Counted from the first letter of the stretch, positions 32,445 through 48,600 are shown. The stretch is 64,000 bases of DNA from Parcubacteria group bacterium (GCA_041659505.1 JBAZYF010000004.1:78922-142921); one strand, 5' to 3'. The notes: generated by a model from the sequence alone, not told the origin. Program-made: numbers and translations.

Positions 32445-33668
32445 TCACTGGGACTTTAGACTCAAACCATAATCCCCCAAAATCTCCGTTACCTCATTAT
32501 TATTTTCAAGATCAATTTTTTTCAAAACATTATAAGCCTCATCCTCAATTTCATTTGTCGTATCGACAGAATCAATAAAAGCAACGTATTTTCCATCAGA
32601 AGATATAAACAGGGCGCTACTGTCCAAGCTCGGATCATCTTCTCCGGTTGCTGGATCAGTATAAATAGGAGCTAATACTCCCGTTTCGAAATTAAATATA
32701 AAAATTCGATTATTCGTAGCCAATGCCAGCCGTTTTTCGTCTTTGCTCCAAGCCACTGAACGCACGCTATCATACCCCGAATCTTCATCCTGATTGATTG
32801 CTGCGGATATATCATAGGTCTTTTCAGGTTTCAAAAGATCATCACTAGCATACAGCAAAAGCTCCCATTGTTTTCCTATCTCAACATTGGGCTTGGCATG
32901 CTGGTTGATCATAATAAAACTTTTTAACGATGGACTGAATGCGCCCGCCGGAACCACTGCCGACACATCGCCAACTTTCAAAGAATCGAAACCTTCCGTC
33001 TTGTTGCAAATTTTAATTTGCGTATCGCAAGCATAAACAGGAGAAACATCACCCAAATCACCAAAGGTCAAATGTCCAAATAATAAATTGCGCTGTGAAT
33101 TCCATCTGAACCAAGACAAAGAAGTCCCTCTTTTTTGTAGCTCAGGGTCTATTCCTTGATATATTTCAGAAAGAAGCGTAGACGGAGAACAGCTTTTATT
33201 TTCAATTTCACAGAGATAATCACTCACAGAAAGTACGGGCTGGTCTGCATCTTTAGGCAATAGCGCGACTGACTTATAAGTTGTAACGGTAACAAGTGCT
33301 TGGCGTTCATCTGGAGAAAGTAAGGTTACGCCCTGCTCAACATCCTCATTTTTATTGTCCCCCAGAACCGGGAAACCTTCAAAACTGTCAAAATTAGATT
33401 GTTCCAAAAGACTTGTCGCCTCAACTTTCCCAGAAAGAAGATCGACTTTTTCCACAGCATCGTTTGCCACCACTAGCAATTTTTTATCAGGAATAACAAC
33501 TTCATCTTGAATAGAAACAGAACCAGCTTCAGAATTAACTGAAGCTGGTTTTAATGATGAATGTTTTCGGCTAATCTGAACAGCTAGTGTGGTCAAGCCA
33601 GCGATTAAAATTATGCCCGCCCCAATGACTGTGAAAAATTTAATTTTATTCTCAATCTTTAACTTCAT
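32445..33668 (-). CDS. Hypothetical membrane-anchored periplasmic protein (TolB-like beta-propeller features)
   Basis: N-terminal TM helix. WSKDEKRLA...SSDGKYVAF propeller-blade-like motifs. Confidence 0.45.
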   Translation of the reverse strand: MKLKIENKIKFFTVIGAGIILIAGLTTLAVQISRKHSSLKPASVNSEAGSVSIQDEVVIPDKKLLVVANDAVEKVDLLSGKVEATSLLEQSNFDSFEGFPVLGDNKNEDVEQGVTLLSPDERQALVTVTTYKSVALLPKDADQPVLSVSDYLCEIENKSCSPSTLLSEIYQGIDPELQKRGTSLSWFRWNSQRNLLFGHLTFGDLGDVSPVYACDTQIKICNKTEGFDSLKVGDVSAVVPAGAFSPSLKSFIMINQHAKPNVEIGKQWELLLYASDDLLKPEKTYDISAAINQDEDSGYDSVRSVAWSKDEKRLALATNNRIFIFNFETGVLAPIYTDPATGEDDPSLDSSALFISSDGKYVAFIDSVDTTNEIEDEAYNVLKKIDLENNNEVTEILGDYGLSLKSQ

Positions 33669-33704: not shown

Positions 33705-35744
33705 TTAATTTTTTATCCGGTAATAGATTTTTTTACTTTTCCACCCGGTCTTTAGATTAACCGCGTACCAATTATAGGTTCCTTTCGGCTTGGCCGCATA
33801 ATAATCCACTCGAAAATAGCCAGTCTTGGAAGTCTTAACCAACATCGGTTTATAATACCCTCCGCCATATTTGGAGAAGTACAGTGCTACCATTGAATTT
33901 TTGGTAAATTTATTTCCCCGCTCAATTAGCAATCCTCCTCGAGGTACGTTTTTTCGCGAATTGGTAATTTTTCTTGTTTGCTCTTTCTTTTTTGAACTTG
34001 AAGATTTTGATTTGTGATTATCTGAAATTGCTGTTGCATTTGAAATAGAGAAAGAAATTGCATAGTCACTGACAGTCGGATTCAACGCTTCATCCGCACA
34101 ACGCACATAGTAGGTATAACTACCACCGTCAATCAATCCGGTAGCGGAAAAAGAATGCGTGGTTGTTCCGGTAGTGGTAGTAAATTCATCAGTCATAGAA
34201 GCATAAGCCGTCTCGGCGGTAGTAGAGTACTTGCAAGTAGCATTTTCATTTGTTGTCACCCCGACAGTCGCCGAAGTCGTTCCCTTAGTCAACGTTCCGC
34301 TTGGTGTTCCATTGGAAAGCACTGGCGGGGTTGTGTCAGGTATATTTAAAGTGATTGTATCTGTAGTATCGCTTGTCACAGTTAGCCCGCCATCTCGAAA
34401 GCGCATATAGACAGTTTTTGATCCATTTCCACTGGTCAGTGTATGCGACGCGGTTGTGGCACAAGTAGCCCAATTAGTCGGACTAGCGGTGTTCCCAAAA
34501 GCCATCTGCACCGTTGCCCAATCATCAGTTGGACAAGTAATATTTAGCGTAACGGCAGTCGTAACTGCTTCCGTAGCACCATTATCAATTGTGAAAGATC
34601 CCCCCGTCGGTGCCGTTGTGTCGAGTTCAATCGTGTCGGTCACATCACTCGCTGTCACAGTCTGTCCACCATCTCGAAAACTCATATAAACTGTCTTTGT
34701 GCCATCTCCAGCAGACAGCGTATGCGCTGTCGTCGCTGCACAAGTCGTCCAGTTGGTCGGATTAGCTGAATTACCGAAAGCCATCTCAACCGGAGTCCAA
34801 CTGTCCGTCGGACAAGTCACATTCAAAGTCACCGCAGTTGAAGCCGTACGTGCCGCATCGCTATTGATCGTAAAGGATCCACCGGTCGGTGCCGCCATAT
34901 CAATTGTGACTGAATCATTCCGGCTTGTGGAAACATTATCCGCCGCATCTTTCGCCCAAGCATACAGCGTTTTGGTGCCTGTTGTTCCGAAAACAAATTC
35001 TGTCGGAACAGCACCCCAATCAGCGTCATCAGACGCAGGAGCGGAAGATGATTCAGTAAGCAGATACGCGGTCACGCCAATCGCATCAGTCGCTGTGAAT
35101 GTGGTAATCGGAACAGTGAGAGAGGCTGAATTGGCTGGAATTACAAAGGCTGTCACCGTCGGTGCTACACCATCCGTTCCAGTAATCGTAACAGCGGCAG
35201 GAGTCCGTGTTGACACAACTTGCGTTCCATTTCCGTCATTAACCGCTGCATTTGACGCAGTCGTAAAAACAACAGGAGAACTAGTTGCCGCGGAAACAGC
35301 ATGAAAAGAAATTGTCGCCACGTCCGTCGGAATAATCTCAGGGGTCGACGTATAAACAACTACTGTAGCTGTTCCAGCGACATTGTCAAAGGTCGGATAG
35401 CCTTCGAGGGAAGAGAAAGCAGTCGTATTGACAGTTATTCCATTAGTATTAATCTGCAACACTGTTTCATCAAACGTAATGTGCAGCTCGACTGCATTTA
35501 TCCCGGGGTTTCCCTCACTTCCATCATTTGAATTAGGATCAACACTCGCAACAAGATTGAAATCAGCGCCCGCCGCAACTGTCGTTGTTGCCGGAGTAAA
35601 AAGTAGTTCCGCATCATCATCTGTCGCGCGAGCAGTTTTAATTTGGGAAAATTGCCAACAGGTTGTGAGAGTAAAAATAACAGCGATAGTAAGCGTTTTG
35701 AACGTTTTCATGGAAAGTACTTTTTTATTTTTCATATTTTTCAT
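33705..35744 (-). CDS. Large secreted surface protein: N-terminal cohesin-like domain, two approximately 95-aa tandem Ig-like repeats, basic C-terminal domain
   Basis: Signal peptide. ELLFTPATTTVAAGADFNLVASV...INAVELHITFDETVLQIN resembles cohesin strands. Tandem repeat APTGGSFTI(N/D)...RFRDGG..VT x2 at nt 34380-34950. Confidence 0.6.
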   Translation of the reverse strand: MKNMKNKKVLSMKTFKTLTIAVIFTLTTCWQFSQIKTARATDDDAELLFTPATTTVAAGADFNLVASVDPNSNDGSEGNPGINAVELHITFDETVLQINTNGITVNTTAFSSLEGYPTFDNVAGTATVVVYTSTPEIIPTDVATISFHAVSAATSSPVVFTTASNAAVNDGNGTQVVSTRTPAAVTITGTDGVAPTVTAFVIPANSASLTVPITTFTATDAIGVTAYLLTESSSAPASDDADWGAVPTEFVFGTTGTKTLYAWAKDAADNVSTSRNDSVTIDMAAPTGGSFTINSDAARTASTAVTLNVTCPTDSWTPVEMAFGNSANPTNWTTCAATTAHTLSAGDGTKTVYMSFRDGGQTVTASDVTDTIELDTTAPTGGSFTIDNGATEAVTTAVTLNITCPTDDWATVQMAFGNTASPTNWATCATTASHTLTSGNGSKTVYMRFRDGGLTVTSDTTDTITLNIPDTTPPVLSNGTPSGTLTKGTTSATVGVTTNENATCKYSTTAETAYASMTDEFTTTTGTTTHSFSATGLIDGGSYTYYVRCADEALNPTVSDYAISFSISNATAISDNHKSKSSSSKKKEQTRKITNSRKNVPRGGLLIERGNKFTKNSMVALYFSKYGGGYYKPMLVKTSKTGYFRVDYYAAKPKGTYNWYAVNLKTGWKSKKIYYRIKN

Positions 35745-35768: not shown

Positions 35769-36302
35769 TTATTCGAAAGAACTTCCAAATTCCCCCGCCA
35801 GAATACTCAAATCACTCACATCAACCGTTCCACTTCGATTAATATCCGCCGCGTGTTCAATAGTTTGGCCGAATAAACCGGCTATAATACCCAAATCAGA
35901 AACATCCACCGCACGATCGATATTTATATCTCCTCGATAAGTAATCAATTTCGAAACCTCAGTCGCGTTATAATTGCTCTCATTAGCCGAAGTGTCATAG
36001 GCCGTCAGACGGAAATAATAGGTCTGTCCGGGAGTGAGTGCATCAAACCAATGCGAAACTCCATTGTCCGTTACATCATAGGAGTTAGCATAATCATCAT
36101 CGGCCGGATCAGTCGCCGACGAGTGGGAAGCAGTGTCGTAATAAATTTTGTAGCCATCCAAATCACCCTCGGAGTTGGCGTTCCAAGTTACGTGCGCCGA
36201 TCCAGCCAAGGCCTGCCCGGCTCCGAAAGCGAATAGAGCAAGAAGCATGCACAAAAAAACCAACTGTTTTTTTGCGGTTTTCATTTCTATTTTACTTTTC
36301 AT
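35769..36302 (-). CDS. Secreted FN3-domain protein with a C-terminal type-I dockerin
   Basis: Signal peptide. FN3 (GYKIYYDT...GQTYYFRLTAYDTSANES). Duplicated Ca-binding segments GDINIDRAVDVSDLGIIAGLFG / ADINRSGTVDVSDLSILAGEFG. Confidence 0.7.
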   Translation of the reverse strand: MKSKIEMKTAKKQLVFLCMLLALFAFGAGQALAGSAHVTWNANSEGDLDGYKIYYDTASHSSATDPADDDYANSYDVTDNGVSHWFDALTPGQTYYFRLTAYDTSANESNYNATEVSKLITYRGDINIDRAVDVSDLGIIAGLFGQTIEHAADINRSGTVDVSDLSILAGEFGSSFE

Positions 36303-36433: not shown

Positions 36434-37414
36434 CTACCCTCCATTTTCCAACATTTCTTTCTCATCTAGAAGTCCCTTGATCGAACCATAAAAACGCACC
36501 TCGTGTGAGCTATTGACGATTCCCCAGTCCAGGCAAACTTTCAATATTTTTCCTTTGATGTGAGCTCCTAAAAAACCGCTTGCAAAAGAATCACCTGCCC
36601 CTGTCGAATCCAACGCCTTTACCATCCTGCCGGGAGCATACAGCACGTCAGTACCATTAGTCGCCCAAGCACCGCGCACGCCATCTGTAATAACCACTAT
36701 GTTTGCACCCATTTCTTTCAATTCCTGCAAAAGAAAAAATTCATTGTCCAAGTCGGATGTGGAAAAATTTTTAATTTGTGAAATAACTTCTAGGGCCTCA
36801 TCCTTGTTGAGAAAAAGCACCTCCGTTTCGGTAATTATCTCGATTATTTTTTTGACATCATCGTGAATATGGATCTGCTTCGGATTATACGCCAACTTAA
36901 GTTTGTGTTCTTTGGCAATTCTAGAAATTAGATCTAACTGACTTCTCCAATCGCCGTGAAGATCTCCAATGAAAATCCACTCGGCTGAACTGATTTTTTC
37001 TGGCACCAGTTCTAATTTTCCGCTTACTTTTTGATTAGAAAAAATTACATGTTCAGCTGAATTGCGATCTACCACAATTGCTGACATATCACTGAAAAGT
37101 TCTTTATCTTTAGTGATCAGATCGACACTGACTTTATTTTTTTTCAACTGATCCAAAATCCAATCCGCCACATGATCATTACCGATGTGTGAGTAGCAAG
37201 CAGCGTCGATGCCCAGACGTGAGAGTCCCACCGCCACATTAGCCGCGCAACCACCCAGCGCCTCAAAGCGCTCTTCGATGCGATATTTCGCTCCCAATTC
37301 AAACTCAATCTTTTGTTGACTCAAAAGATCCTCCGGCGTTTCTATGATTTTTCCTTCAGTCGTCGGAAAAAAAACATCCTTACAAGCCGAGCCGATACAA
37401 ATTACTCTTGACAT
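36434..37414 (-). CDS. PfkB-family carbohydrate kinase (ribokinase-like)
   Basis: GGCAANVAVGLSRLG and GAGDSFASGFL signatures. Confidence 0.85.
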   Translation of the reverse strand: MSRVICIGSACKDVFFPTTEGKIIETPEDLLSQQKIEFELGAKYRIEERFEALGGCAANVAVGLSRLGIDAACYSHIGNDHVADWILDQLKKNKVSVDLITKDKELFSDMSAIVVDRNSAEHVIFSNQKVSGKLELVPEKISSAEWIFIGDLHGDWRSQLDLISRIAKEHKLKLAYNPKQIHIHDDVKKIIEIITETEVLFLNKDEALEVISQIKNFSTSDLDNEFFLLQELKEMGANIVVITDGVRGAWATNGTDVLYAPGRMVKALDSTGAGDSFASGFLGAHIKGKILKVCLDWGIVNSSHEVRFYGSIKGLLDEKEMLENGG

Positions 37415-37519: not shown

Positions 37520-39637
37520 TCAACTCACACTAAATCCGCTCGGCGAAGTTGGCGCAGTCACATCTTCTATGCCGGAAATATATTCATAGGCACCGATCGA
37601 TGGTGGATCTGGACGAGAAAATCCAACCTTATCCGTCGGCACGCCAGCCAAAGGAATTCCAGCTCCGATGAGCGGGCTGTCCGACTGAAGCCGAAAATCA
37701 CAGGTATTATTAACGCAGTCCGTATAGGCAGCGATAAATTTAGGGTTTCCGCCGTTAATATAATCATGATCACCGGTTTCATCGATCAGCTCTGCTGTTC
37801 TCGCGCCATAGGTCGGCGGATTCCACATACCATAATAGTTGTTGGACGCGGGGTTGTTTGAACTATCTTTAATGAGACAGCTTTTTATTCCTTCAGCGTC
37901 ATAGATCCGTGGATCGCCATCGGGAACAGCCGAAGGATTGCAGGTGAAAGAACTGGTTACACCGGTTTTTTTATTCCAGCCCCACTGGTCACCAAACATT
38001 ACATCGACCGTTCCACTGACTACACAAGTCGTGTTCCAAGCGGTGTTGGTCCAAGTGATTCCACTGTCCGTGCAAGTGTTGCCAACGTTGGGGCAATTCG
38101 CACTCCAGTTTGGCGGCGTTGCACCGGTGTTGCCACTACCGGCTCCAACATAAACCGAACCGTTGGCGGTGAGCATCGCTTGCTCTCCACCCTGCCCGAT
38201 CCAATGTGAAATATCCGTATTGACCGACCAAGTTTGCGTGATAACATTTTTGGCGCACTCCACCCAATCTCCCATCGGCCCGCCACCAATGATGCCGAAA
38301 TTCGGATTAGTTGTTCCGCCAATAATAATATTATTGCGATATTCACCGCCGGTCGCCCAACCTTCCAAAGGATAGACTTGATCAGACTGAGCAATATTGA
38401 AAAAAGTATTGTTGTAAATTTTATCATTAGGAGCAGCAAAGCAAGTATTTCTGTGCGTAATATTAGCAAAAATATTATTATGCACCAGCCAATCATGATT
38501 ATTGTCTCCCTCCATCATGCAGGTCTGAGCTTCCAAATCATGGAAATAATTATTCTGAATTGTCACGTCGAAGGAATCACCCCCGACTATTTGGAAAAGA
38601 TCAGTGTGCGCACCACAATTGTCCGCCAAATCCGGTCGGTTCTCATTGGAATCCAAAAGATTTGAGACTTCATTATCTTCGATAATCGTTCCCTCAAGCA
38701 ATCCATCAAACACTCTTTCCGTGTTAATCAAGTTACGCACGATATTTCGACGAAAAATATTATCCACTCCGCCAGAAACAATCGGAATCCAATAAGATGA
38801 TCCAATCGCATAGCAATCGCCAGTTTCCCAAGTGATGCCAAGAGATGTGGTCAAAGAATGAGCGTCATTAGCAATGACTGTCCCCGCATCAGTTCCGGCC
38901 CAACTGTCTCCCGGATCCGTAAAATCCCAAATTCGCCGACCCTGCCACTGATTGGACGTCCAAGCAGAACTATAACTATCCGACAGTGTCGTACCGTTCG
39001 CACCCGTGTGATGTCCACCAACCAGAACCGGATTCGTGTCTCCTTCAATCAGATTATTTTCAGCAATATTGTCATGCCCGTCAAAAGTTATGGCTGCGCT
39101 GCCTACAGATTGGCTAGGGTTATAGAAATGACAACTGGTTACTTTGGAGTGACTCGGTGAGCTATCCCAACCGAAAGTTACGCCCGCGTACCCGGAAGAA
39201 TAACCATAAGAACCGGTGATACCCAGACCATTGACGATATTGTAGCTATGATTTATCTGGATGCCTGGACGGATAATCGCCGAATATTGCTGGGCGCCGG
39301 GAGTGATTTGAATAGTGATGTAAGTCGGACTGGTCGCGCAACTTGCGCCCGAGCATCCATCTGCTTTTGTCGTCAGCAATCCCTCGTCCGTGTGGTCGCC
39401 TCGAATATTAACTACATCCCCAGGAGAAACGGCCACATCAATCCCTTTCTGCACCGTACGAAAAGCACAGTTTCCAGATGATCCGGAAGCATCAACAGAA
39501 CCATTACAATTATCATTTCCATCCGTGCGGACATAGTAGTTCGTGGCACTAGCTCTAGCACCAAAACTAAAAATTCCACCAAAGATAATTAGACCGAGAA
39601 AAATTAATTTAGCGTTTAGCCTTTTAGCCTTCATCAT
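37520..39637 (-). CDS. Secreted right-handed parallel beta-helix repeat protein (pectate-lyase-fold), paralog 1 of 6
   Basis: Signal peptide. Many xNNxIxxN beta-helix rungs. Ends ...IGAYEY...PSGFSVS. Confidence 0.7.
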   Translation of the reverse strand: MMKAKRLNAKLIFLGLIIFGGIFSFGARASATNYYVRTDGNDNCNGSVDASGSSGNCAFRTVQKGIDVAVSPGDVVNIRGDHTDEGLLTTKADGCSGASCATSPTYITIQITPGAQQYSAIIRPGIQINHSYNIVNGLGITGSYGYSSGYAGVTFGWDSSPSHSKVTSCHFYNPSQSVGSAAITFDGHDNIAENNLIEGDTNPVLVGGHHTGANGTTLSDSYSSAWTSNQWQGRRIWDFTDPGDSWAGTDAGTVIANDAHSLTTSLGITWETGDCYAIGSSYWIPIVSGGVDNIFRRNIVRNLINTERVFDGLLEGTIIEDNEVSNLLDSNENRPDLADNCGAHTDLFQIVGGDSFDVTIQNNYFHDLEAQTCMMEGDNNHDWLVHNNIFANITHRNTCFAAPNDKIYNNTFFNIAQSDQVYPLEGWATGGEYRNNIIIGGTTNPNFGIIGGGPMGDWVECAKNVITQTWSVNTDISHWIGQGGEQAMLTANGSVYVGAGSGNTGATPPNWSANCPNVGNTCTDSGITWTNTAWNTTCVVSGTVDVMFGDQWGWNKKTGVTSSFTCNPSAVPDGDPRIYDAEGIKSCLIKDSSNNPASNNYYGMWNPPTYGARTAELIDETGDHDYINGGNPKFIAAYTDCVNNTCDFRLQSDSPLIGAGIPLAGVPTDKVGFSRPDPPSIGAYEYISGIEDVTAPTSPSGFSVS

Positions 39638-39650
39638 AAAATTAAATTTA

Positions 39651-39677
39651 TTCTGTTACTTGCCTTGTTACGTAACA
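39651..39677. promoter_or_regulatory. Operator-like motif TGTTACTTGCCTTGTTACGTAACA, 14 bp upstream of the paralog-1 start codon. Near-identical to the motif at the AbrB-like gene (48801-48827).
   Basis: 24/25 nt identical to 48801-48825. Contains the palindrome TTGTTACGTAACA. Confidence 0.5.
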
Positions 39678-39694
39678 TATTATTTACATCACTT

Positions 39695-41392
39695 TTATTC
39701 AACACTTAATCCTTGAGGTGTTATTGGGGACGTCGTGTCTGTTCCAAAATATTCATACGCTCCAATATCATAGGCGCCGGCAATTCTGGCAATCGGATTG
39801 GCTGTGCCGGCGGTGTTAATATTGCCATAATAGGGACTGCCGATTGTAGCGCCGTTATTGATTGCGTCGCCGGAGGTGATTTTGAAATAGTCGGCGTTGG
39901 GGAGCAAATTAGTTCCATAGGTGCCGGAAAATCCGGTGGGCAAAGTGCCACCTGCAAACGTTGGAACTGTGATCTTGGCCGTCGGTTCCCATGCTGCAGT
40001 TATTATATTATCACCCTCTCCGTCATAAACGATATGCTCTCCCCAGTTGCCGGTTGAGACATAGACGTGATCTGTCCCGCTTGAACGATAATATAGATTA
40101 TTATTGTGGATGAGCGTTCCACTGCCAATGTCAGCGTACATAGGGATATAATCATAGGCAGATATCGAAGTTGTTACTACGCTTAATATATTATTTTTCA
40201 AATTAAATGTAGGCGTTCCACTTATAGTGCTACTATCCCTTGAAAAACCAATGCACCCAACAAAAGTATCTATTCCGTTCGCCTCTGCATATAGCGTGTT
40301 GTTGTAAATTCCAAATTCGGAGTTTCCATAGTCTGAACTGCTAAAATTGATTCCATAACCCACATTATTATAAATCAGATTATTATAAAAATAACTTGTC
40401 TGATCTTGAGCATAAAAGTTTTGAAAGATAATGCCATCTTTTGTGTTATTGCGAATTAAGTTATATCGCACCACTAAATCAGTAGGTATCCCATTAATCG
40501 GCCCATCTAGTGAGTCCCTAACGCTTATTCCGTAAATCTGCCCCGGAGCCACCGCGCCGGTGTCATAAAGATCACACCACTCTATCGTCACGTTTTTTGA
40601 ATTGTTATTTACCGCTATCGCGATACCATTTCCGGATTTATTGCTGTCGTTATTATCCGTGCCGTTATCATACACCTTGCAATGGCTTATTATTACCCCG
40701 TCAACACCGTTTCCGCAGTTTGCAGTATTGCCCCAGCTCGGGTATACGGCGATTCCCTCATGGTAGGTATTATATATTTCGCAATTGGTTATGTTGATGT
40801 TAGTATTAACAATGCTGGAATTCGCTTTTGCGCCGACCAATATGCCATACATCCAATATTTCTGGGTGTTTCCTGTCGGCTGCCCTTGATCGTGGACAAC
40901 GCAGTTATCCACCGTAATATTTGATATTGGTGAAGAATTTGAGTATCCAATATAGATTCCACCAGAATTTATTTGACTACCGTCAACTTCAAAACCTGCA
41001 AAGATTACGTCACTCTCTATTATTCTGACCGTAGAAGTGTTTGATATGGCAGTAGCTTTCAATTTAGCTCTTGTACCTGTCCCGTAAGCTGACCCGTCAT
41101 AGGCAACACCGGACGTCGCGATCAACAAAGGATTATCGCCCGTCCAGGTATCCTGCGACCGGAAATAAACCGTATCCCCGCTAGCAACTATATTTGAATA
41201 TCCGGCAGTAGCCATAACGCGATCAGGCGTCGCCCAAGCATTGGCATCATCCAATCCAGACAAACTGTCATTGCCTCCGTTTTTGACATAATATGTGGCG
41301 GCACTGGCTTTGGCGCTCGCGCCGAAAATTGCAAAAAATAGGATTGCGAGGAAAAATATTTTTAGTTTTAATTTTACTTTTACTTTTAGCAT
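39695..41392 (-). CDS. Secreted parallel beta-helix repeat protein, paralog 2
   Basis: Conserved leader MLKVKVKLKLKIFFLAILFFAIFGASAKASAATYYVKNGGNDSLSGLDDANAWAT. Beta-helix rungs. C-terminal module ...DIGAYEYFGTDTTSPITPQGLSVE. Confidence 0.75.
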   Translation of the reverse strand: MLKVKVKLKLKIFFLAILFFAIFGASAKASAATYYVKNGGNDSLSGLDDANAWATPDRVMATAGYSNIVASGDTVYFRSQDTWTGDNPLLIATSGVAYDGSAYGTGTRAKLKATAISNTSTVRIIESDVIFAGFEVDGSQINSGGIYIGYSNSSPISNITVDNCVVHDQGQPTGNTQKYWMYGILVGAKANSSIVNTNINITNCEIYNTYHEGIAVYPSWGNTANCGNGVDGVIISHCKVYDNGTDNNDSNKSGNGIAIAVNNNSKNVTIEWCDLYDTGAVAPGQIYGISVRDSLDGPINGIPTDLVVRYNLIRNNTKDGIIFQNFYAQDQTSYFYNNLIYNNVGYGINFSSSDYGNSEFGIYNNTLYAEANGIDTFVGCIGFSRDSSTISGTPTFNLKNNILSVVTTSISAYDYIPMYADIGSGTLIHNNNLYYRSSGTDHVYVSTGNWGEHIVYDGEGDNIITAAWEPTAKITVPTFAGGTLPTGFSGTYGTNLLPNADYFKITSGDAINNGATIGSPYYGNINTAGTANPIARIAGAYDIGAYEYFGTDTTSPITPQGLSVE

Positions 41393-41406
41393 TTTTATTC
41401 TTTCTC

Positions 41407-43050
41407 TTAGTTTACACTAAGTCCGCTGGGTGCGGAAGGAGAAATTATGTCTGTGCCTTGATATTCATACGCTCCAATATCATAGGCGCCGGCAATTCTG
41501 GCAATCGGATTGGCTGTGCCGGCGGTGTTGATGTTGCCGTCATAGGGACTGCCGAGTGTGGCACCGTTGTTCAAAGCGTCGCCAGAGGTGATTTTGAAAT
41601 AGTCGGCGTTGGGCGCCATGTCAGTTCCATATGTTCCAGAGAAGCCAGTAGGTAGCTCCCCTCCTGTGAAAAGTGGGTTTGTTACTTGTACTCCGGATGT
41701 TTCCCATGAGGCTAAATCAGAGGCATCGTAAGCAGACGCGTCAACCTGAACCCACTTAATTTCTGGATGAGACAAGGCATTGTCTTGATAATACAAATTG
41801 TTAGAATGATTAAGAACATCCGACTGTATTAAGGCCGTGTTTTTATTATTCTGATGCTGCCAAAAAATATTATTCCTCACATTTGCTGTCAGTCCAGTAA
41901 CGACGCCTCCAGTTGTTATACACTGGCCTTGAGTATAATCTGTGTTAGTTGTGCTGATTTGAGCTACAGTATTATTGTAGAAATTGATTATGCTATTTTT
42001 GCTATCCCTCACCAATCCATAATCAGCCGTAGTAAAGTGAACACCAGTTGAAACGGGGGAGCCAGATGATCCGCTATTGTAAATAATATTGCCATAAATA
42101 TCCATTTCTATAGCAAAACCTCTCGGAGTAAATGATATTCCTGAGTACCGGCTTGAGTATATGAGATTATGCCGTAAAGTGACACCAGTCATGCATTTAG
42201 TACTCTCATATTCAGAACATTCAACAGTAACCCCGTAATAATTATCATGAATATTATTATATTCTGCTACTAAATTAGTGATGTCATCTTTAAGTCGTAA
42301 GCCACCTGAACTTTTATCAGCCGACATGCTTGAGTTGTACACTTCATTATTTCTAATAATTACGTCCCTGACATAAGCAGTTCTTGCCCAAGTAGGATAA
42401 ACTGATATTCCGCCCCATCCAGAATTATATACGACATTATTGGTCATGGTTATATCGCTTACGGTTAAACCGTCTGGCTGTACCGTCCCAATATATATTC
42501 CATTAGACCCTTGCGCGGCTGAACCGCAATCATGGACTACATTATCATCGATGGCAATGTGACCAAAATCAGCAGTAGCGAACGTATGACATGCATCTAT
42601 CCCAAAAACGTTTGTTGAACCTCCATCTATCTCAAACCCACCAAAGAGAACATTACTAACTCCAATTTGAACTACCCCATATGATTTTGTGGGATCTGTA
42701 CCATTATTAATAGCTTTTAAAAATGCACGCTGTTGTGTTCCTGTTCCGTACCCCTTGCCGCGATATGTAACACCAGTTTTTGTTATCAGCGTAGGTGCCA
42801 ACTCTGATATCCACGACCCCTGCGTGTTGAAATAAACAACATCTCCGCTGGTAAGTACAGTCGAGCCTGTCCACTCCACCATACCTGGACAGTGCGCCCA
42901 AGCATTAGCATCATCAATACCAGACAAGGAATCATTTCCACCGTTTTTGACATAATAGGTCGCGGCGCTGGCTTTTGAACTCATGCCAAAAATTGCAAAA
43001 AATAGAATTGCCAGGAAAAATATTTTTAGTTTTATTATTTTAAAATTCAT
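41407..43050 (-). CDS. Secreted parallel beta-helix repeat protein, paralog 3
   Basis: Same leader and C-terminal module (…YDIGAYEYQGTDIISPSAPSGLSVN). Divergent core. Confidence 0.75.
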   Translation of the reverse strand: MNFKIIKLKIFFLAILFFAIFGMSSKASAATYYVKNGGNDSLSGIDDANAWAHCPGMVEWTGSTVLTSGDVVYFNTQGSWISELAPTLITKTGVTYRGKGYGTGTQQRAFLKAINNGTDPTKSYGVVQIGVSNVLFGGFEIDGGSTNVFGIDACHTFATADFGHIAIDDNVVHDCGSAAQGSNGIYIGTVQPDGLTVSDITMTNNVVYNSGWGGISVYPTWARTAYVRDVIIRNNEVYNSSMSADKSSGGLRLKDDITNLVAEYNNIHDNYYGVTVECSEYESTKCMTGVTLRHNLIYSSRYSGISFTPRGFAIEMDIYGNIIYNSGSSGSPVSTGVHFTTADYGLVRDSKNSIINFYNNTVAQISTTNTDYTQGQCITTGGVVTGLTANVRNNIFWQHQNNKNTALIQSDVLNHSNNLYYQDNALSHPEIKWVQVDASAYDASDLASWETSGVQVTNPLFTGGELPTGFSGTYGTDMAPNADYFKITSGDALNNGATLGSPYDGNINTAGTANPIARIAGAYDIGAYEYQGTDIISPSAPSGLSVN

Positions 43051-43070
43051 TTCAAATTTACAATTTTAAA

Positions 43071-45068
43071 TTATTCCACTGCTAATCCGCTCGGCATATT
43101 CGGTGGAGTCGCGTCAGATCCTTGGTATTCATAGGCGCCGATATCATAAGCCGATCCTTGTGGTCTTGCAACTCCAAGATAATCCACATTATAGGGACTC
43201 CCAAGTGTTGCTCCATTGTCATAAGCAGTTGAAGAAGTGCTTATGCTTAAATCGCCCTCGGAAGGATCGGCATAATTTGGATCCGCGCTTTCAAATCCAT
43301 TGACATCAAATCCATTTCCTTGCCATGTTGCCCATGATACAGGATTCATTCCCCCACCAAAAACAGTTTGAATGGAATTTCCGGAATGATTATAATTAAT
43401 ATTATTATCTATTTCTACTGAACCAGCATTATAGGCGCCATAATAAATTGCTATTCCTAATTTTGAATAGAAAATATTATTTTTTATTGTAAAATTTCCT
43501 GGAGTATAAGCACATCCAGAATTGAGAGCAACGCCACCTCCGGCATTAGGAGCATAAATCGAATTATTTATAAAATAATTTTCTCCAGTAAGAGGATTAG
43601 CTTGTGTTGCACTTTGACCCGTATAAGCGAAAGCTGAATCGGCATGAGTTGACGTCTGTATGACTAAATTATTTGACCATACATTATTTTGGAATCCCCA
43701 ATCTAACCTTCCCGACGAATACATAGCAGTCATTGGTCCAATGATTTTATTTTTTGTAAACGTATTTCCTTGGATAGGCGCAGAATCAGCATATTGAAAA
43801 TAATAATAAGCTCTTAATGCATTAAGCGAAGATGACGCAATAAGGGCAGTCGCCTGATCACCCGTTAAACTGCAACTAATAAGATTATCACTAATCGTAC
43901 TATCCTGTACTGCTTGCCATGATATACCTTCACAGTCAGCGGTATCAAAATAATGGGTGAATTCAGGCACTGTATTTATTGATTGACCACTTGGAATTAT
44001 AATTTCCCCATGATGGGTTATCTCATTTTCTGTTACTAAATAATTTGAATGTTTTCCAACGCCTTCAGTGCCATTACTTGCCCAAAATGATATTCCAGAA
44101 TTACAATAACTTATATGATTTCCTTGTATTGTCATATCTGACAAAACAGCATTCGTGGAAGCATCAACAACCCCCCAAATCGCCCAATAGGTATTAGATA
44201 TTGTATTATTAGAAACGACATTGCCCTGTAAATTTGACGACCCAGATGCTCCATGCCCCATATGTATCGCAGTAGGACATCGAGTAAATGTTAAGCCATC
44301 AACTGTAATATAACTTCTATCACGAATATCAAATCCGGCAGGGGCATAATTAGAAGTTGCACCCTCACCGCCCATGGTCCATCCAAGAGATTCTAATATG
44401 CGGTCAGAAGGTGCTCCGCTTGATGGACTATAATACAATACAGACCCAGAATAATAAAACCATCCATTAGTCAATGATGCACTACTGCCAGGCAACAATG
44501 GCACTCCGTCTTCCCATAAAACTCTCGGTCTTATATAGGTTTGATTATATGTATAGATATAATTTCCAGTATAAATGCTGACATTTGTTGTATTTGTCCA
44601 TGTCCCTGTCAATAAAAACGTTCGATCAATCACAGGAGAATCACCTGGTGCCGCGGTATATGTGATAGGACTTCCTTCTGCTCCATCAGAAGGAGGAATA
44701 AATAAAGGTGATTCATTCCCAGTAGGCCTATAAGCATACACTGTTCCACCATGCGTCGTTGTTCTTTCTTCCATACCATCATCGCAAATATAAATAGTAT
44801 CGCCTGGAGCAAATGTCTGAGCATTGTGCGTAGCAACGGACATAGCTGTTGAAGCGGAAGAGCAGGAGGTGGCAGCGGACTTATCAGAAGCCGTTCCATC
44901 AAATCGCATATAATATTCTGCCGCGCTGGCATCTAGCGCTTTCATGCAAAAAACTGTCGGAAATAAAACCGCTAGAAAAAAGATTTTTAGTTTTAAATTG
45001 TCATTTTGCCTGCCCGAAATGCCGCCCATATTAAAAGTTTTTGACTGGTTATTTGTTAATATTTTCAT
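43071..45068 (-). CDS. Secreted parallel beta-helix repeat protein, paralog 4. The start may be Met at 45029.
   Basis: Leader NLKLKIFFLAVLF. Beta-helix rungs. C-terminus ...YDIGAYEYQGSDATPPNMPSGLAVE. Confidence 0.7.
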   Translation of the reverse strand: MKILTNNQSKTFNMGGISGRQNDNLKLKIFFLAVLFPTVFCMKALDASAAEYYMRFDGTASDKSAATSCSSASTAMSVATHNAQTFAPGDTIYICDDGMEERTTTHGGTVYAYRPTGNESPLFIPPSDGAEGSPITYTAAPGDSPVIDRTFLLTGTWTNTTNVSIYTGNYIYTYNQTYIRPRVLWEDGVPLLPGSSASLTNGWFYYSGSVLYYSPSSGAPSDRILESLGWTMGGEGATSNYAPAGFDIRDRSYITVDGLTFTRCPTAIHMGHGASGSSNLQGNVVSNNTISNTYWAIWGVVDASTNAVLSDMTIQGNHISYCNSGISFWASNGTEGVGKHSNYLVTENEITHHGEIIIPSGQSINTVPEFTHYFDTADCEGISWQAVQDSTISDNLISCSLTGDQATALIASSSLNALRAYYYFQYADSAPIQGNTFTKNKIIGPMTAMYSSGRLDWGFQNNVWSNNLVIQTSTHADSAFAYTGQSATQANPLTGENYFINNSIYAPNAGGGVALNSGCAYTPGNFTIKNNIFYSKLGIAIYYGAYNAGSVEIDNNINYNHSGNSIQTVFGGGMNPVSWATWQGNGFDVNGFESADPNYADPSEGDLSISTSSTAYDNGATLGSPYNVDYLGVARPQGSAYDIGAYEYQGSDATPPNMPSGLAVE

Positions 45069-45125
45069 AAGCTCGAATTAATTTTATGGAATTTCGCGGC
45101 AGGCGGGCATTTTGATATTTGCATT

Positions 45126-47045
45126 TTAATTTACCATAAGTCCTCCCGGAGCTATTGGCGACGTTGTATCAGTTCCAAAATATTCATACGCACCAATATC
45201 ATACGCTCCGGCAATTCTAGCAATCGGATTGGCTGTTCCGGCGGTATTGATGTTGCCGTCATAGGGACTGCCAAGCGTGGCGCCGGCGTTGAGAGAACTG
45301 CCAGAAGTGATTCTGAAATAGTCAGTATTAGGAAGCAGATTAGTGCCATAAGTTCCGCTGAAACTAACCGGAAGAGTGCCCCCGGTGAATGTTGGCGGAT
45401 CAATTAGTGCAGAGGCGTCCCAATCTCTTACTTGCGCTAAATTATAATTTCTAGCATTAGTGCCATATGTTCCATAGCGGATGACAGTTGCCGTTGGCCC
45501 TCCAATCGACCGGTAATAAATATTATTAGCTCTTGTTAGATGGCCTTGGGTGCAGGTATCATGGTCGTTATTATAACATTCTGTTATAGCGGGATAATCT
45601 CCGCTGTAGACAATATTATTTTTGAAATTGAATGTAGGGTTGCCCTTGATGTCATTATTTTGGATCCCAATCGCCCCGCCATCTCCGATGTAGATACTAC
45701 CTTTAATCGCAGCCGTACTGTTTACGTTGTAAAAGGTATTGTTATAGATATCCACGACCGTGTCTCCATAGTGGCAACTAGGAATCTTAAGATCATTTTT
45801 ATTATCAATAAACAAATTGCCATACAGCCTTGCATCAAAAGTTCTGCTTCCGAGGGCATTGGCGAATACAAAACCCTGATTATTATTCCGCACAATATTA
45901 TATCTAAACACAATATCATTGGGAACACCCGGGTCTGCGGGGATAAATTCTCCGTCGGTCACAACAGTTGCTCCGCTCGTATTTCCCTTAAGCACATCGC
46001 CATCGGAAGGGGCAACGATATAATCATTCGGCATAGAAATGAAGAGCGGACTTGCTTGCATGTGAGTTTGGGCTGAAAAAACTACTTGTCCGGTATCTGC
46101 TCCGCCTGACCAAGCACCTTGGCCATGATCCCATGATACAATTTCACCGTCCTGCAAAGTTCCAACCGGGTTGTTGTATGGCACATTAGCCGCTCTCGCA
46201 TAAGTCTCAATCTGTGCTCCATTGCCGGCATTATTATAGAGCGTACAATATTCAACAGTGACGTTATCTGCATCATCTTTGATATCCACTCCATTGCCAT
46301 AACCAGCAAGACTATTCCCATCCGAATCAATCCCTATGCCTGTGTCATGGACGGTGCAATTTCGAACTAAAACATTTTCGATACTATGCCCGCTTCGCGT
46401 CCAAGTCGGATAGATAACAATTCCCGCCCGCATAGTGTTATATACTTCCGTATTTGTTATGGAAACATTTTCAACAGAATAATTATATCCCCCAACAGTG
46501 CCAATGTAGATTCCCCTGATCCACCAATCTTGATAGGTCGTTCCCACATCATGCACGACACAATCATCGATCGCGAGATCGGTGAAACTTTCATTGCAAT
46601 AACCGCAGGCATCGATACCGCTAGTGTCATGCGAAGCCACATCGATTTCGAAGCCTTTGATATTGACGTGGCTCTTGGAAACAATAATTACTCCGTCACC
46701 ATCATACCCAGCATCATCCTTATCTCCTGTTGCCCGTAAAATCGCCCTCGCGCCAGAGCCGTACGTCGAACCATCATAAGTCGCACCCTCCTTTGCTGTT
46801 ATGGCAGGCGGATTGACTGCCCAAGTGCCTTGATTGTTGAAATAGACCGTGTCGCCACTCGTCACTGTCGCCTCAACTTTGGCAGTGGTCGCCCAAGCAT
46901 TTGCGTCGTTGAGTCCTGAGAGACTATCGTTGCCACCATTTTTGACGTAATAGGTGGCGGCGCTGGCTTTGGCACTCACGCCAAAAATTGCAAAAAATAG
47001 GATTGCAAGAAAAAATATTTTTAATTTTAGTCTTTGCTTTAGCAT
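45126..47045 (-). CDS. Secreted parallel beta-helix repeat protein, paralog 5
   Basis: Leader MLKQRLKLKIFFLAILFFAIFGVSAKASAATYYVKNGGNDSLSGLNDANAWAT. C-terminus ...YDIGAYEYFGTDTTSPIAPGGLMVN. Confidence 0.75.
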   Translation of the reverse strand: MLKQRLKLKIFFLAILFFAIFGVSAKASAATYYVKNGGNDSLSGLNDANAWATTAKVEATVTSGDTVYFNNQGTWAVNPPAITAKEGATYDGSTYGSGARAILRATGDKDDAGYDGDGVIIVSKSHVNIKGFEIDVASHDTSGIDACGYCNESFTDLAIDDCVVHDVGTTYQDWWIRGIYIGTVGGYNYSVENVSITNTEVYNTMRAGIVIYPTWTRSGHSIENVLVRNCTVHDTGIGIDSDGNSLAGYGNGVDIKDDADNVTVEYCTLYNNAGNGAQIETYARAANVPYNNPVGTLQDGEIVSWDHGQGAWSGGADTGQVVFSAQTHMQASPLFISMPNDYIVAPSDGDVLKGNTSGATVVTDGEFIPADPGVPNDIVFRYNIVRNNNQGFVFANALGSRTFDARLYGNLFIDNKNDLKIPSCHYGDTVVDIYNNTFYNVNSTAAIKGSIYIGDGGAIGIQNNDIKGNPTFNFKNNIVYSGDYPAITECYNNDHDTCTQGHLTRANNIYYRSIGGPTATVIRYGTYGTNARNYNLAQVRDWDASALIDPPTFTGGTLPVSFSGTYGTNLLPNTDYFRITSGSSLNAGATLGSPYDGNINTAGTANPIARIAGAYDIGAYEYFGTDTTSPIAPGGLMVN

Positions 47046-47061
47046 TTTGCTTTTTCCAATT

Positions 47062-48600
47062 TTAATTTACTGCGAGACCAGTTGGGACTTCAGGATGAGA
47101 AACATCAATCAAGTCTTGGAGTGGATGCGGATAAATTAACGGGGTATAAGTCAAAGTATGATTTCCTGCGCCTGATGGCTGACTCGCCGTAATGGAATAG
47201 TCAACGTCCCCATTACCAAATCCCGCTGTAACATGTGGCGTGCTTTTGAAATAATTGACTCCACTATAAATGACAACACCGAAGCTATTGTCACATGCTA
47301 GCCCCAAGGCTGAAGAATCATAGCACTTGTCCTGAAGGCCATTATTCCAGACATAGAGGGGGAAAGTTGTTTGTTTATCGCCAGAAAGTATCTGCGCCAT
47401 AGTTTTTCCCGCCGCCCTTCCGGTTTGCGCAAGGCAGGGCCAGCCAGGAGCAGAAGCATCGCCCGCATTTCCGTCCCAAGCATGTGTGCCATCGCAGTAA
47501 AGTAGTGGCGCTCCGGTCTGATCCTGCTCAGGAAGCCTCCCCTCTCCTATCCTAATTGCATTTTCCGGCCAACCGACAAAAGTATTGTCATAAATTAGAC
47601 CCGTGCCACCGCCATGGATGCGCATCGGAGTCAACCAATCACCGCCATAATCCCAACTAAATTTATTATTATAAACCTCCCACCATTGTGTGTTGACGCT
47701 TCCTCCTGTCGTCCAGTGAGAATATAATCCCACATCTGTGAGCGTATTATGGCGAAAAACTATCCTTCCTCCCCGATAACCGCTGTCGATAGCCGCATAG
47801 CCGGAAGCACCGTAGGGTCCGGTTGAACTAGCCACGAAAGTGTTGTCTTCAATGTAAATTGCATTTAAACTTCCCGGCTGAAAAGGCTGTGCTAGGTTAT
47901 ATGCTCCGAAAATATTATTTATCGAACCGTCTTCCGAAGAAAATTCTCCGTCATATATAATAGTTGACTCGCAATTCATGACAAAATAGTTATGATCAAT
48001 GAGGCCAAAGGCGAGTCCGCGAATCGTAATTGCGTGCGGACCGCAGGTATTAGGGTAATAGAAAGTCATATGATCAATCCTCCAGCCATAACTAGTGCCT
48101 GACGGTTGAACTGGATAATTATAGCCGTCATTAGAAAGAGAAAACCCGCCACCATTATTTAAGCTAGTTAAAAAAATATTTGTCACCCTCCAGGCCATTT
48201 TTGTACTATTTGTTTCACTGGAATAAATTCCGCTTGTGTTCATCAATCCGTCGTCAGTCGTTAAACAAGTATCAACGGATGGATTACAAGAACATGTGCT
48301 ACCTGCGCAAGAACCATGTCCCTGCCCTTGAAGTGTTATATTTTTATCCACCCAACCTACACCGTTATCCCAAGCAGGATTGACGTTGCAAGATCCGACA
48401 CTAATATTGACCACGTCTCCGTCGATTGCCAAGCTTGTCGCACTGGTAAGTGCAGTTGTAATATCACCGGAACAAGTAACATTCCTAGTTGCCCCAAAAG
48501 TTTTCCCCGCCACTCCAAACACTCCACAAAAAAGAATTATGAGAAAAAAGATTTTTAGTTTCAAGTTTTGGCGCATTTTTTTCTGCCCAAGACAAATCAT
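47062..48600 (-). CDS. Secreted parallel beta-helix repeat protein, paralog 6. Most divergent. The start may be Met at 48576.
   Basis: Leader MRQNLKLKIFFLIILF. Beta-helix rungs. Ends ...HPEVPTGLAVN. Confidence 0.65.
   Translation of the reverse strand: MICLGQKKMRQNLKLKIFFLIILFCGVFGVAGKTFGATRNVTCSGDITTALTSATSLAIDGDVVNISVGSCNVNPAWDNGVGWVDKNITLQGQGHGSCAGSTCSCNPSVDTCLTTDDGLMNTSGIYSSETNSTKMAWRVTNIFLTSLNNGGGFSLSNDGYNYPVQPSGTSYGWRIDHMTFYYPNTCGPHAITIRGLAFGLIDHNYFVMNCESTIIYDGEFSSEDGSINNIFGAYNLAQPFQPGSLNAIYIEDNTFVASSTGPYGASGYAAIDSGYRGGRIVFRHNTLTDVGLYSHWTTGGSVNTQWWEVYNNKFSWDYGGDWLTPMRIHGGGTGLIYDNTFVGWPENAIRIGEGRLPEQDQTGAPLLYCDGTHAWDGNAGDASAPGWPCLAQTGRAAGKTMAQILSGDKQTTFPLYVWNNGLQDKCYDSSALGLACDNSFGVVIYSGVNYFKSTPHVTAGFGNGDVDYSITASQPSGAGNHTLTYTPLIYPHPLQDLIDVSHPEVPTGLAVN

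What the first reader, a model, noticed from the sequence alone, without database searches (positions are those of the whole stretch)
37520..48600. Conserved extreme C-terminal tag P-x-G-(L/F)-x-V-(E/N/S)-stop on all six beta-helix paralogs
All six proteins terminate with PSGFSVS, PQGLSVE, PSGLSVN, PSGLAVE, PGGLMVN or PTGLAVN immediately before the stop codon. This includes paralog 6, whose preceding 80 aa are unrelated to the others. A short conserved motif pinned to the C-terminus, combined with N-terminal signal peptides, suggests a sorting, processing or anchoring signal. No sortase, PEP-CTERM/exosortase or T9SS C-terminal-domain component is visible here.
Basis: seen in the sequence. Interest (0 to 1): 0.6.

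Follow-up and report, generated by a model that had tools for sequence, protein, structure and literature searches.

The report
Detached FN3 strand as anchoring tag
Six secreted enzymes of an uncultured tiny bacterium each end in a 14-residue tail that is the missing first strand of an incomplete fibronectin-type domain encoded just downstream, which suggests an undescribed way of clipping enzymes onto the cell surface by completing a split protein domain.

Summary
Six adjacent minus-strand genes of a Parcubacteria (CPR) MAG end in D-x-x-x-P-x-x-P-x-G-(L/F)-x-V-x-stop. Only three are true paralogs. All six share only the signal peptide and this tail.

The tail is the linker plus strand A of a fibronectin type III (FN3) domain. 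A gene 1.2 kb downstream (35769-36302) encodes signal peptide, then an FN3 that starts exactly at strand B, then a dockerin. A cohesin scaffold gene follows it. Tail plus acceptor rebuild one FN3, minus a 4-residue hairpin tip.

In 17 CPR loci, 13 of them with tagged genes, 36 tagged genes of varied folds lie directly upstream of such strand-A-less FN3 genes, 2 lie between them and none lies downstream. These FN3 proteins carry dockerin, membrane-helix or peptidoglycan-binding anchors.

Best explanation (about 0.6): the tail is a donor strand that completes the anchor's incomplete FN3 in trans and displays the enzymes on the surface. No sortase, exosortase or protease lies within about 18 kb. 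I found no prior description in the literature searched.

The parts
37523..37564 (-). Tag of p1 (DVTAPTSPSGFSVS), last 14 codons before the TGA stop of gene 37520-39637 (705 aa, signal peptide, choice-of-anchor Q domain at residues 644-686)
   Evidence: aligns to strand-A positions of the FN3 subfamily HMM
39698..39739 (-). Tag of p2 (DTTSPITPQGLSVE), end of gene 39695-41392 (565 aa, right-handed beta-helix PF13229)
41410..41451 (-). Tag of p3 (DIISPSAPSGLSVN), end of gene 41407-43050 (547 aa, paralog of p2 and p5)
   Evidence: (alignment shown)
43074..43115 (-). Tag of p4 (DATPPNMPSGLAVE), end of gene 43071-45068 (665 aa, choice-of-anchor Q at residues 609-649)
45129..45170 (-). Tag of p5 (DTTSPIAPGGLMVN), end of gene 45126-47045 (639 aa, beta-helix PF13229)
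47065..47106 (-). Tag of p6 (DVSHPEVPTGLAVN), end of gene 47062-48600 (512 aa, no family hit; shares only signal peptide and tag with the others)
36204..36302 (-). Signal peptide of the acceptor protein (residues 1-33, ends ALA|GSA)
   Evidence: A-x-A|GSA conserved in 87 homologs; helix 10-27
35943..36203 (-). Strand-A-less FN3 domain (proposed acceptor). The mature N-terminus GSAHVTW is strand B.
   Evidence: Pfam fn3 matches profile positions 14-72 only. AF2 pLDDT 89; the first strand (34-39) directly follows the signal helix. Foldseek top hits are all FN3. The subfamily HMM match starts at position 36.
35772..35942 (-). Dockerin-like module of the acceptor protein (two D-x-N-x-D-x-x-V-D-x-S-D loop-helix repeats)
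   Evidence: PF00404 at 19.8-20 bits, below the 22.9 cut-off. Many homologs carry precomputed PF00404 hits. AF2 helices 134-143 and 162-171 have pLDDT above 95.
33705..35744 (-). 679-aa scaffold: cohesin-like N-terminal domain, Ig-like repeats and a conserved basic C-terminal domain. It immediately follows the acceptor gene.
   Evidence: No Pfam hit of its own. Full-length homolog of L001 655 aa. Residues 22-289 are 38.5% identical to L001 484 aa, whose N-terminus hits PF00963 Cohesin at 38.2 bits. Same gene order in L001 (twice) and L004.
32445..33668 (-). 407-aa membrane-anchored protein with weak beta-propeller hits; a conserved third gene of the acceptor/scaffold module
   Evidence: homologous to L001 364 aa and L004 392 aa in the same position

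Best explanation
The 14-residue tail (D-T-T-P-P-x-A-P-x-G-L-x-V-x-COOH) is a detached linker plus strand A of a fibronectin type III domain.

After Sec export, the tail of each of the six secreted enzymes inserts as the missing edge strand, antiparallel to strand B, into the incomplete FN3 at the mature N-terminus of the protein encoded at 35769-36302. That protein's dockerin then binds the cohesin of the scaffold encoded at 33705-35744. In this way one shared adaptor displays several polysaccharide-active enzymes on the cell surface. In other CPR genomes the same incomplete FN3 is attached directly to a membrane helix or to a peptidoglycan-binding domain.

Shown here:
- the homology of the tag to strand A;
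- the absence of strand A in the acceptor;
- the exact complementarity of the two break points;
- the portability of the tag;
- the operon-level linkage of tags and acceptors;
- the anchor modules on the acceptors.

Inferred: physical binding in trans, its stability, and surface display.
For: 1. When the motif is internal (6 cases), it is always followed by the rest of an intact FN3.

2. The consensus of 318 intact copies of the acceptor's own FN3 subfamily reads VDTTPPAAPTGLTATAEGDGSVTLSWNANTEPDLAGYKVY. This contains the tag consensus, then 4 residues, then the acceptor's mature N-terminus.

3. With that HMM, the acceptor alone aligns from position 36 (73.6 bits). Each of the six tags joined to the acceptor aligns from position 16-17 with a single 4-residue deletion (82.2-85.9 bits). 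Shuffled tags give 77-79 bits (z = 4.1-7.2).

4. The acceptor lacks strand A: Pfam fn3 covers positions 14-72 only, and AF2 (pLDDT 89) places the first strand directly after the signal helix. Nearly all of the 87 homologs begin A-x-A|GSA-x-L-x-W, so they also start at strand B.

5. Across 17 CPR loci, 13 of them with tagged genes, 36 tagged genes lie upstream of acceptor genes in 125 kb, 2 lie between two acceptors, and none lies in 140 kb downstream. All are on the same strand, and the median gap to the acceptor is about 150 bp. With a looser motif, 36 of 273 ORFs are tagged, against 0.32 expected.

6. The tag is pinned: exactly one residue follows V/I in 41 of 44 tags.

7. Tagged proteins are unrelated in fold (beta-helix, polysaccharide lyase, unknown). 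Some homologs end right after GAYEY with no tag, and others carry the tag after a long (VVTPP)n linker. So the tag is not part of its own protein's fold.

8. Acceptors carry anchors: dockerin (window), a membrane helix (120-128-aa forms), PG_binding_1 (L021, L017, L040), and C-terminal membrane anchors (L008, L061).

9. A donor-first case outside CPR: in L008 the tagged beta-helix (APKNLRVVE-stop) sits next to a signal-peptide|GSATLAW strand-A-less FN3 protein.

10. An unsplit ancestor-like form exists: L113 has beta-helix, then GAYE, then an intact FN3.

11. Donor-strand exchange is already documented in CPR pili (bioRxiv 10.64898/2026.03.03.709456).
Against: - No direct test of binding was possible. 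The structure tool refuses chimeras and complexes.
- In the one natural protein family that has both an N-terminal strand-A-less FN3 and a C-terminal tag (P0209), the AF2 monomer leaves the tag as low-confidence coil (pLDDT 60-71) and does not dock it.
- Strand-A-less N-terminal FN3 domains are common in Deltaproteobacteria, KSB1, Acidobacteria and others without tagged genes within 10 kb (5 tags against 2 expected). They also occur as the first domain of giant tandem-FN3 proteins. The incomplete domain may therefore be stable alone.
- Tagged beta-helix homologs in non-CPR exopolysaccharide loci mostly have no acceptor nearby.
- Most linked loci were found by searching with the acceptor, which is an ascertainment bias.
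- Adding the tag to the generic Pfam fn3 model raises the score by only about 2 bits.
Confidence: 0.6

Rival explanations
1. The tail is a sorting or processing signal. An as yet unknown protease or transpeptidase encoded elsewhere recognises it, cleaves it, or uses it to attach the protein covalently.
For: - It is pinned at the extreme C-terminus of signal-peptide proteins, with an invariant register.
- It sits right after a 'choice-of-anchor Q' domain in p1 and p4. From my knowledge of NCBIfam naming, that is a position where other lineages place PEP-CTERM, LPXTG or T9SS signals.
Against: - There is no hydrophobic helix or basic tail after the motif.
- No sortase, exosortase, rhombosortase or protease was found among 20 neighbouring genes in the window.
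- None was found among the acceptor and tagged proteins scanned in other loci.
- The tail's sequence is fully explained as FN3 strand A.
- The conserved neighbour is a binding domain that lacks exactly this strand.
Confidence: 0.12
2. The tail does bind in trans, but to a partner other than the strand-A-less FN3. Candidates are an Ig-like repeat of the scaffold, an S-layer or pilus component, or host surface molecules. On this view the co-localisation with the incomplete FN3 reflects only a shared surface operon.
For: - Incomplete N-terminal FN3 domains exist widely without nearby tags.
- Tagged homologs exist without nearby acceptors.
- L131 and L120 place tagged genes next to type IV pilin-like genes.
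Against: - Tag and acceptor belong to the same FN3 subfamily and break at complementary points, 4 residues apart.
- The linkage is tight and directional.
Confidence: 0.12
3. The tail is a relic with no binding function. It is the stump left when C-terminal FN3-anchor modules were lost or split off. It persists because the conserved gene ends (signal peptide and tail) are homogenised by recombination among tandem cassettes.
For: - Unsplit beta-helix-FN3 fusions exist.
- Signal peptides are near-identical within each genome's array, which suggests concerted evolution.
Against: - The same 14 residues with the same one-residue overhang are kept across at least five CPR lineages, and in Nitrospirota and Elusimicrobia, on unrelated folds.
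- Signal peptides differ between genomes.
- Tag codons differ synonymously within the window.
- Untagged homologs show that the stump can be lost freely.
Confidence: 0.1
4. The tail is the last strand or cap of each protein's own fold (a cis element).
For: It follows the conserved GAYEY end of the beta-helix by only a few residues in p1-p5.
Against: - p6 and many tagged proteins in other loci have unrelated folds.
- Homologs end at GAYEY without the tail, or carry it after 20-30 residues of Pro/Thr/Val linker.
- AF2 of P0209 leaves the tail unstructured.
Confidence: 0.03

Closest known systems
Donor-strand complementation/exchange in pili (chaperone-usher Pap/Fim, Bacteroidia type V pili, archaeal threads, CPR Pam pili)
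   Same: An Ig-like or FN3-like domain lacks one strand, and a short strand from another polypeptide completes it. In type V pili the donor is C-terminal and the groove is freed at the N-terminus. The principle has been demonstrated in CPR (bioRxiv 10.64898/2026.03.03.709456).
   Different: Here the donors are diverse enzymes, not pilins. The acceptor is an anchor or adaptor, so the product would be a 1:1 display complex and not a polymer. The missing strand is A of a canonical FN3. No chaperone or usher is seen. There is no homology to Pam, Pap or Fim proteins. The Nitrospirota family with both ends (P0209) could polymerise, but it lies outside this window.
Cohesin-dockerin display (cellulosome-like systems)
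   Same: Secreted polysaccharide-active enzymes are gathered on a cohesin-bearing scaffold. A dockerin and a cohesin gene are adjacent here.
   Different: The enzymes carry no dockerin. A separate FN3-dockerin adaptor would have to be joined to them first through the tag. Such an extra, split-domain tier is not known from cellulosomes.
Engineered split-domain tags (SpyTag/SpyCatcher from CnaB2; FN3 fragment complementation, from my own knowledge of Koide-lab work)
   Same: A short peptide strand restores an incomplete beta-sandwich. This shows that such complementation is physically feasible.
   Different: Those are laboratory constructs, and SpyTag forms an isopeptide bond. Here the split would be natural, and there is no evidence of covalent chemistry.
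C-terminal sorting signals (LPXTG/sortase, PEP-CTERM/exosortase, T9SS CTD)
   Same: A position-specific C-terminal element on secreted proteins, following a 'choice-of-anchor' domain.
   Different: There is no transmembrane helix, no basic tail, no 80-100-aa CTD and no cognate enzyme. The tag ends one residue after the motif.

Membership tests
Fibronectin type III domain, strand A (tag) | Sequence homologous to the N-terminal linker plus strand A of intact FN3 domains | tested here: met
   Internal occurrences are always followed by an intact FN3. All six tags align to positions 16/17-30 of an HMM of 318 intact domains, z 4.1-7.2 against shuffles.
Fibronectin type III domain (acceptor, 35943-36203) | FN3 fold with seven strands A-G | tested here: not met
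   The fold is FN3 (PF00041 at 29.7 bits; Foldseek top hits are all FN3). Strand A is absent: the profile match starts at position 14 (Pfam) or 36 (subfamily HMM), and the first AF2 strand follows the signal peptide directly.
Donor-strand complementation systems | Acceptor domain lacking one strand, plus a matching strand on a separate polypeptide | tested here: met
   The break points are complementary; only a 4-residue hairpin tip is missing. The two parts are encoded in separate genes of one cluster.
Donor-strand complementation systems | Physical insertion of the donor strand into the acceptor | not testable with these tools
The AF2 monomer of a natural two-ended protein did not dock the tag.
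Donor-strand complementation systems | Dedicated periplasmic chaperone and usher or assembly factor | tested here: not met
   No such families were found among the window neighbours. Short membrane-anchored incomplete FN3 proteins in other loci could play a holding role, but this is speculation.
Cohesin-dockerin system | Dockerin module (PF00404) with duplicated Ca-binding loop-helix | tested here: inconclusive
   19.8-20 bits, below the 22.9 cut-off. Homologs pass. AF2 shows two confident helices.
Cohesin-dockerin system | Cohesin module (PF00963) on a partner scaffold | tested here: inconclusive
   The window scaffold has no direct Pfam or PDB hit. It is homologous over residues 22-289 to L001 484 aa, which hits PF00963 at 38.2 bits.
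Cohesin-dockerin system | Enzymes themselves carry the dockerin | tested here: not met
   None of the six enzymes has a dockerin.
Sortase/LPXTG | LPXTG-like motif followed by a hydrophobic helix and basic tail; sortase gene | tested here: not met
   The protein ends one residue after the motif. No sortase was found in about 18 kb on either side.
PEP-CTERM/exosortase | PEP motif, TM helix and Arg-rich tail; exosortase EpsH | tested here: not met
   Absent from the tails and from the window neighbours. EpsH is seen only near a non-CPR homolog, L009.
T9SS C-terminal domain | 80-100-aa beta-sandwich CTD (for example PF18962) | tested here: not met
   The tag is 14 aa, and there is no CTD hit in the six proteins.

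The most novel reading that the evidence does not exclude
A natural 'tag/catcher' system. A 14-residue C-terminal peptide (FN3 strand A) is grafted onto many unrelated secreted proteins. It locks into an anchor-borne FN3 that is made without strand A. This would be a general, enzyme-free surface-display mechanism in CPR bacteria, with relatives in Nitrospirota and others. In proteins that carry both ends it could build head-to-tail fibres.

An acceptor-specific lysine at the end of strand G may clamp the tag's free carboxylate. That would explain the invariant one-residue overhang.
Probability: 0.5. Interest if true: 0.88.

Novelty: new variant of a known kind. Interest (0 to 1): 0.78.

Why it matters
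CPR/Patescibacteria are ultrasmall, mostly uncultured episymbionts. How they organise their cell surface is largely unknown.

If the tag completes the incomplete FN3, this would be a sorting principle that needs no sortase or secretion-coupled enzyme. It would let one anchor gene serve whole arrays of surface enzymes.

It would also extend donor-strand complementation from pilus assembly to cargo display. And it would provide a ready-made, very small natural peptide/domain pair for protein engineering.

For annotation, it allows dozens of 'hypothetical' CPR proteins to be called surface-displayed from 14 C-terminal residues. It also flags N-terminal strand-A-less FN3 proteins as candidate anchors.

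Tried and rejected
- **Generic Pfam fn3 on tag+acceptor chimeras.** The match extended to profile positions 1-3 for two of three tags, but the gain was only about 2 bits and a scrambled control gained 1.3 bits. This was too weak. I replaced it with a subfamily HMM.
- **AF2 of P0209, a natural protein with both ends.** The tag came out as coil at pLDDT 60-71 and did not dock in cis. This is uninformative for trans binding.
- **Profile search of the scaffold N-terminus against PDB sequences.** No cohesin hit. The cohesin assignment rests on homology to L001.
- **Donor-first neighbourhood look-ups.** Four proteins were not on record. L090 ended at the contig edge. The metagenome loci were mostly too short or non-CPR, and only L146 showed an adjacent acceptor.
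- **Literature searches** for split or incomplete FN3, dockerin/cohesin in Parcubacteria, and donor strand plus dockerin. Nothing relevant turned up except the Pam pilus preprint.
- **Recoding or read-through of the stop codons.** Rejected: each stop is followed within 14-60 nt by the next gene's own start and signal peptide.
Full report
**Observation.** The six minus-strand genes between 37520 and 48600 end in PSGFSVS, PQGLSVE, PSGLSVN, PSGLAVE, PGGLMVN and PTGLAVN, each directly before a stop codon. In the six-frame translation of the whole window the strict motif occurs seven times, and six of these are those C-termini. The conserved unit is really 14 residues, D-x-x-x-P-x-x-P-x-G-(L/F)-x-V-x. 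Its conserved residues are encoded by different synonymous codons in the six genes, so the constraint acts on the peptide. The genes are not six paralogs. Only p2, p3 and p5 align over their full length (41-46% identity). p4 and p1 share the signal peptide and a C-terminal 'choice-of-anchor Q' region. p6 shares nothing but the signal peptide and the tag. The source is a Parcubacteria-group (CPR) MAG.

**What the tail is.** In all sequences gathered, the pattern D..[PAS]P..P.[GN]L.[VIA] occurs internally only six times. Each time it is followed by the rest of an intact FN3 domain (..[34 protein letters not shown]). I built an HMM from 318 intact internal copies of one FN3 subfamily (W-N-A-N-x-E-x-D-L-x-G-Y). 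Its consensus reads VDTTPPAAPTGLTATAEGDGSVTLSWNANTEPDLAGYKVY. The first 14 residues of that unit are the tag consensus obtained from 41 tags: D, T/I/V, T/I, P/A, P, x, x, P, S/T, G, L, x, V/I, x, stop. Exactly one residue follows V/I in 41 of 44 cases.

**The complementary half is in the window.** Gene 35769-36302 (177 aa) lies 1.2 kb downstream of p1 on the same strand. It encodes a signal peptide ending ALA|GSA, an FN3 domain, and a dockerin-like module. Pfam fn3 matches only profile positions 14-72. AF2 (pLDDT 89.4) puts the first strand (residues 34-39, GSAHVT) directly after the signal helix, followed by strands C, C', E, F and G. Foldseek returns only FN3 domains. Nearly all of the 87 homologs begin A-x-A|GSA-x-L-x-W-N-A-N; that is, they start at strand B.

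Against the subfamily HMM, the acceptor alone aligns from position 36 ('gsvtLsW', 73.6 bits). Each of the six window tags joined to it aligns from position 16-17 with one 4-residue deletion ('aegd', the tip of the A-B hairpin), scoring 82.2-85.9 bits. Shuffled tags score 77-79 bits (z = 4.1-7.2). Tag plus acceptor therefore equals one FN3 domain of a single subfamily, cut at the A-B turn.

**Linkage elsewhere.** I searched species-representative genomes with the acceptor family. This returned loci from Moranbacteria, Wolfebacteria, Brennerbacteria, Parcubacteria and others. In them, arrays of one to eight same-strand genes, each with a signal peptide and each ending in the tag, sit immediately upstream of one or two strand-A-less FN3 genes. 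With a strict 14-residue pattern, 36 tagged genes lie upstream of acceptors (125 kb surveyed). Two lie between two acceptors. None lies downstream (140 kb). The median distance from the last tagged gene to the acceptor is about 150 bp. With the looser motif, 36 of 273 ORFs in CPR loci are tagged, against 0.32 expected from the internal motif rate.

Tagged proteins range from 126 to 745 aa and include beta-helix, polysaccharide-lyase and unassigned folds. Beta-helix homologs elsewhere end right after GAYEY without a tail, or carry the tail after a long (VVTPP)n linker. The tag is therefore a portable module and not part of its carrier's fold.

**The acceptors look like anchors.** In the window the incomplete FN3 is fused to a dockerin. 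The next gene (33705-35744) is a scaffold. Its N-terminal domain is homologous to a PF00963 cohesin protein that holds the same position in L001. A third conserved gene (32445-33668) follows it. In other CPR loci the acceptor takes one of two forms. One is a 120-128-aa protein in which a membrane helix leads straight into strand B. The other is a 370-570-aa protein ending in PG_binding_1 (L021, L017, L040). Outside CPR, a tagged beta-helix (…APKNLRVVE-stop) in L008 sits next to a signal-peptide|GSATLAW protein with a C-terminal membrane anchor. In the Nitrospirota locus L061, two tagged proteins follow an anchored acceptor. An unsplit form also exists: L113 has beta-helix, GAYE and an intact FN3. 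This is consistent with gene fission at the A-B turn.

**Mechanism proposed.** After export, the tag adds as the missing edge strand to the incomplete FN3. This is donor-strand complementation. It ties the enzyme to a dockerin adaptor and so to the cohesin scaffold, or directly to membrane or wall anchors in other genomes. FN3 topology places the end of strand A beside the end of strand G (established knowledge). Acceptors carry a lysine right after 'EVS' at the end of strand G in about 82% of aligned cases, where intact domains have A, V or G. This lysine could pair with the tag's free carboxylate and explain the fixed one-residue overhang. That step is inference only.

The enzymes' role is also inferred. 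Their homologs lie in exopolysaccharide loci next to Wzy-type and glycosyltransferase genes, so they probably act on polysaccharides.

**Weaknesses.**
- Binding was not tested.
- Strand-A-less N-terminal FN3 domains are widespread in other phyla without nearby tags. They also head giant tandem-FN3 proteins, so the domain may not need completion.
- Donor-first sampling outside CPR rarely found an adjacent acceptor.
- The dockerin and cohesin assignments in the window rest partly on homologs.

**Rivals.** A sorting or processing signal is disfavoured. There is no helix or basic tail after the motif. No sortase, exosortase or protease appears among 20 neighbouring genes. A functionless relic is disfavoured by conservation of sequence and register across lineages on unrelated folds, with synonymous codon variation. 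A cis role is contradicted. Binding to a different partner cannot be excluded.

**Comparison and novelty.** The principle matches donor-strand complementation in chaperone-usher and type V pili and in the recently described CPR Pam pili. It differs in that the donors are enzymes, the acceptor is an anchor, the domain is a canonical FN3 lacking strand A, and no chaperone or usher is seen. It resembles cellulosomal display, but the enzymes lack dockerins. Five literature searches found no description of such a split FN3 tag. I rate it a new variant of a known kind. Confidence in the mechanism is about 0.6 and interest is 0.78.

Noticed in passing
window 37520-48600 (N-termini of the six genes): All six proteins, including the unrelated p6, share a near-identical signal peptide (LKLKIFFLAILFFAIFG.SAKASA). 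The same within-genome uniformity is seen in other arrays (L021, L022), but the peptide differs between genomes. This suggests concerted evolution or cassette-like exchange of the gene ends.
   Followed up: partly
L080 7067-7915 (P0209) and homologs P0208-P0244: A Nitrospirota family carries both a strand-A-less FN3 at the mature N-terminus and a C-terminal tag (…DKDPPAPPTGMRVQ-stop), separated by InlB B-repeat-like domains. The architecture is pilin-like and could polymerise head to tail. The AF2 monomer left the tag disordered.
   Followed up: partly
P0328, P0329, P0342, P0348: In giant proteins with up to 20 tandem FN3 copies (period 96 aa), every internal copy has the D-x-T-P-P-x-x-P-x-I linker and strand A. 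The first copy, right after the signal peptide, lacks it.
   Followed up: no
homologs of p2, e.g. P0002, P0016, P0036, P0057: Other beta-helix homologs end in different short strand-like tails after flexible linkers: …GSGFKLQGVTIR (about 25 proteins), …VPRIKISKLK and …RVVKVKKRIFTR. These may be other classes of C-terminal strand tags with unknown partners.
   Followed up: no
window 32445-36302; L001 10001-19231; L004 1427-6201: There is a conserved CPR module: strand-A-less FN3-dockerin, then a cohesin scaffold ending in a basic 'KPxGxYxWYAxDxKTGxKSK' domain, then a membrane-anchored protein with weak beta-propeller hits. It is duplicated in the Moranbacteria locus L001.
   Followed up: partly
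window 36434-37414: A cytoplasmic pfkB-family sugar kinase gene sits between the tagged-enzyme array and the acceptor gene, on the same strand.
   Followed up: no
L007, L009, L092 (non-CPR homologs of p2): Tagged beta-helix homologs lie inside exopolysaccharide clusters directly after a Wzy_C-type gene, among glycosyltransferases. In L009 an exosortase EpsH/EpsI gene lies 6 kb away.
   Followed up: no
L131 2028-5040; L120 3961-5493: Type IV pilin-like genes (N-terminal GFSLIELLV-type prepilin motifs) lie immediately upstream of tagged-gene arrays in two CPR-like metagenome contigs. One of them is a 510-aa pilin-like protein ending in a GAYE-like beta-helix motif.
   Followed up: no
window 19336-26264 and 58472-61005: There are two sets of MacB-type ABC transporter genes (MacB_PCD/FtsX permeases, an ABC ATPase and a HlyD-like adaptor) plus a DsbA-like thioredoxin protein. 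They flank the region at a distance, and no link to the tag system was examined.
   Followed up: no
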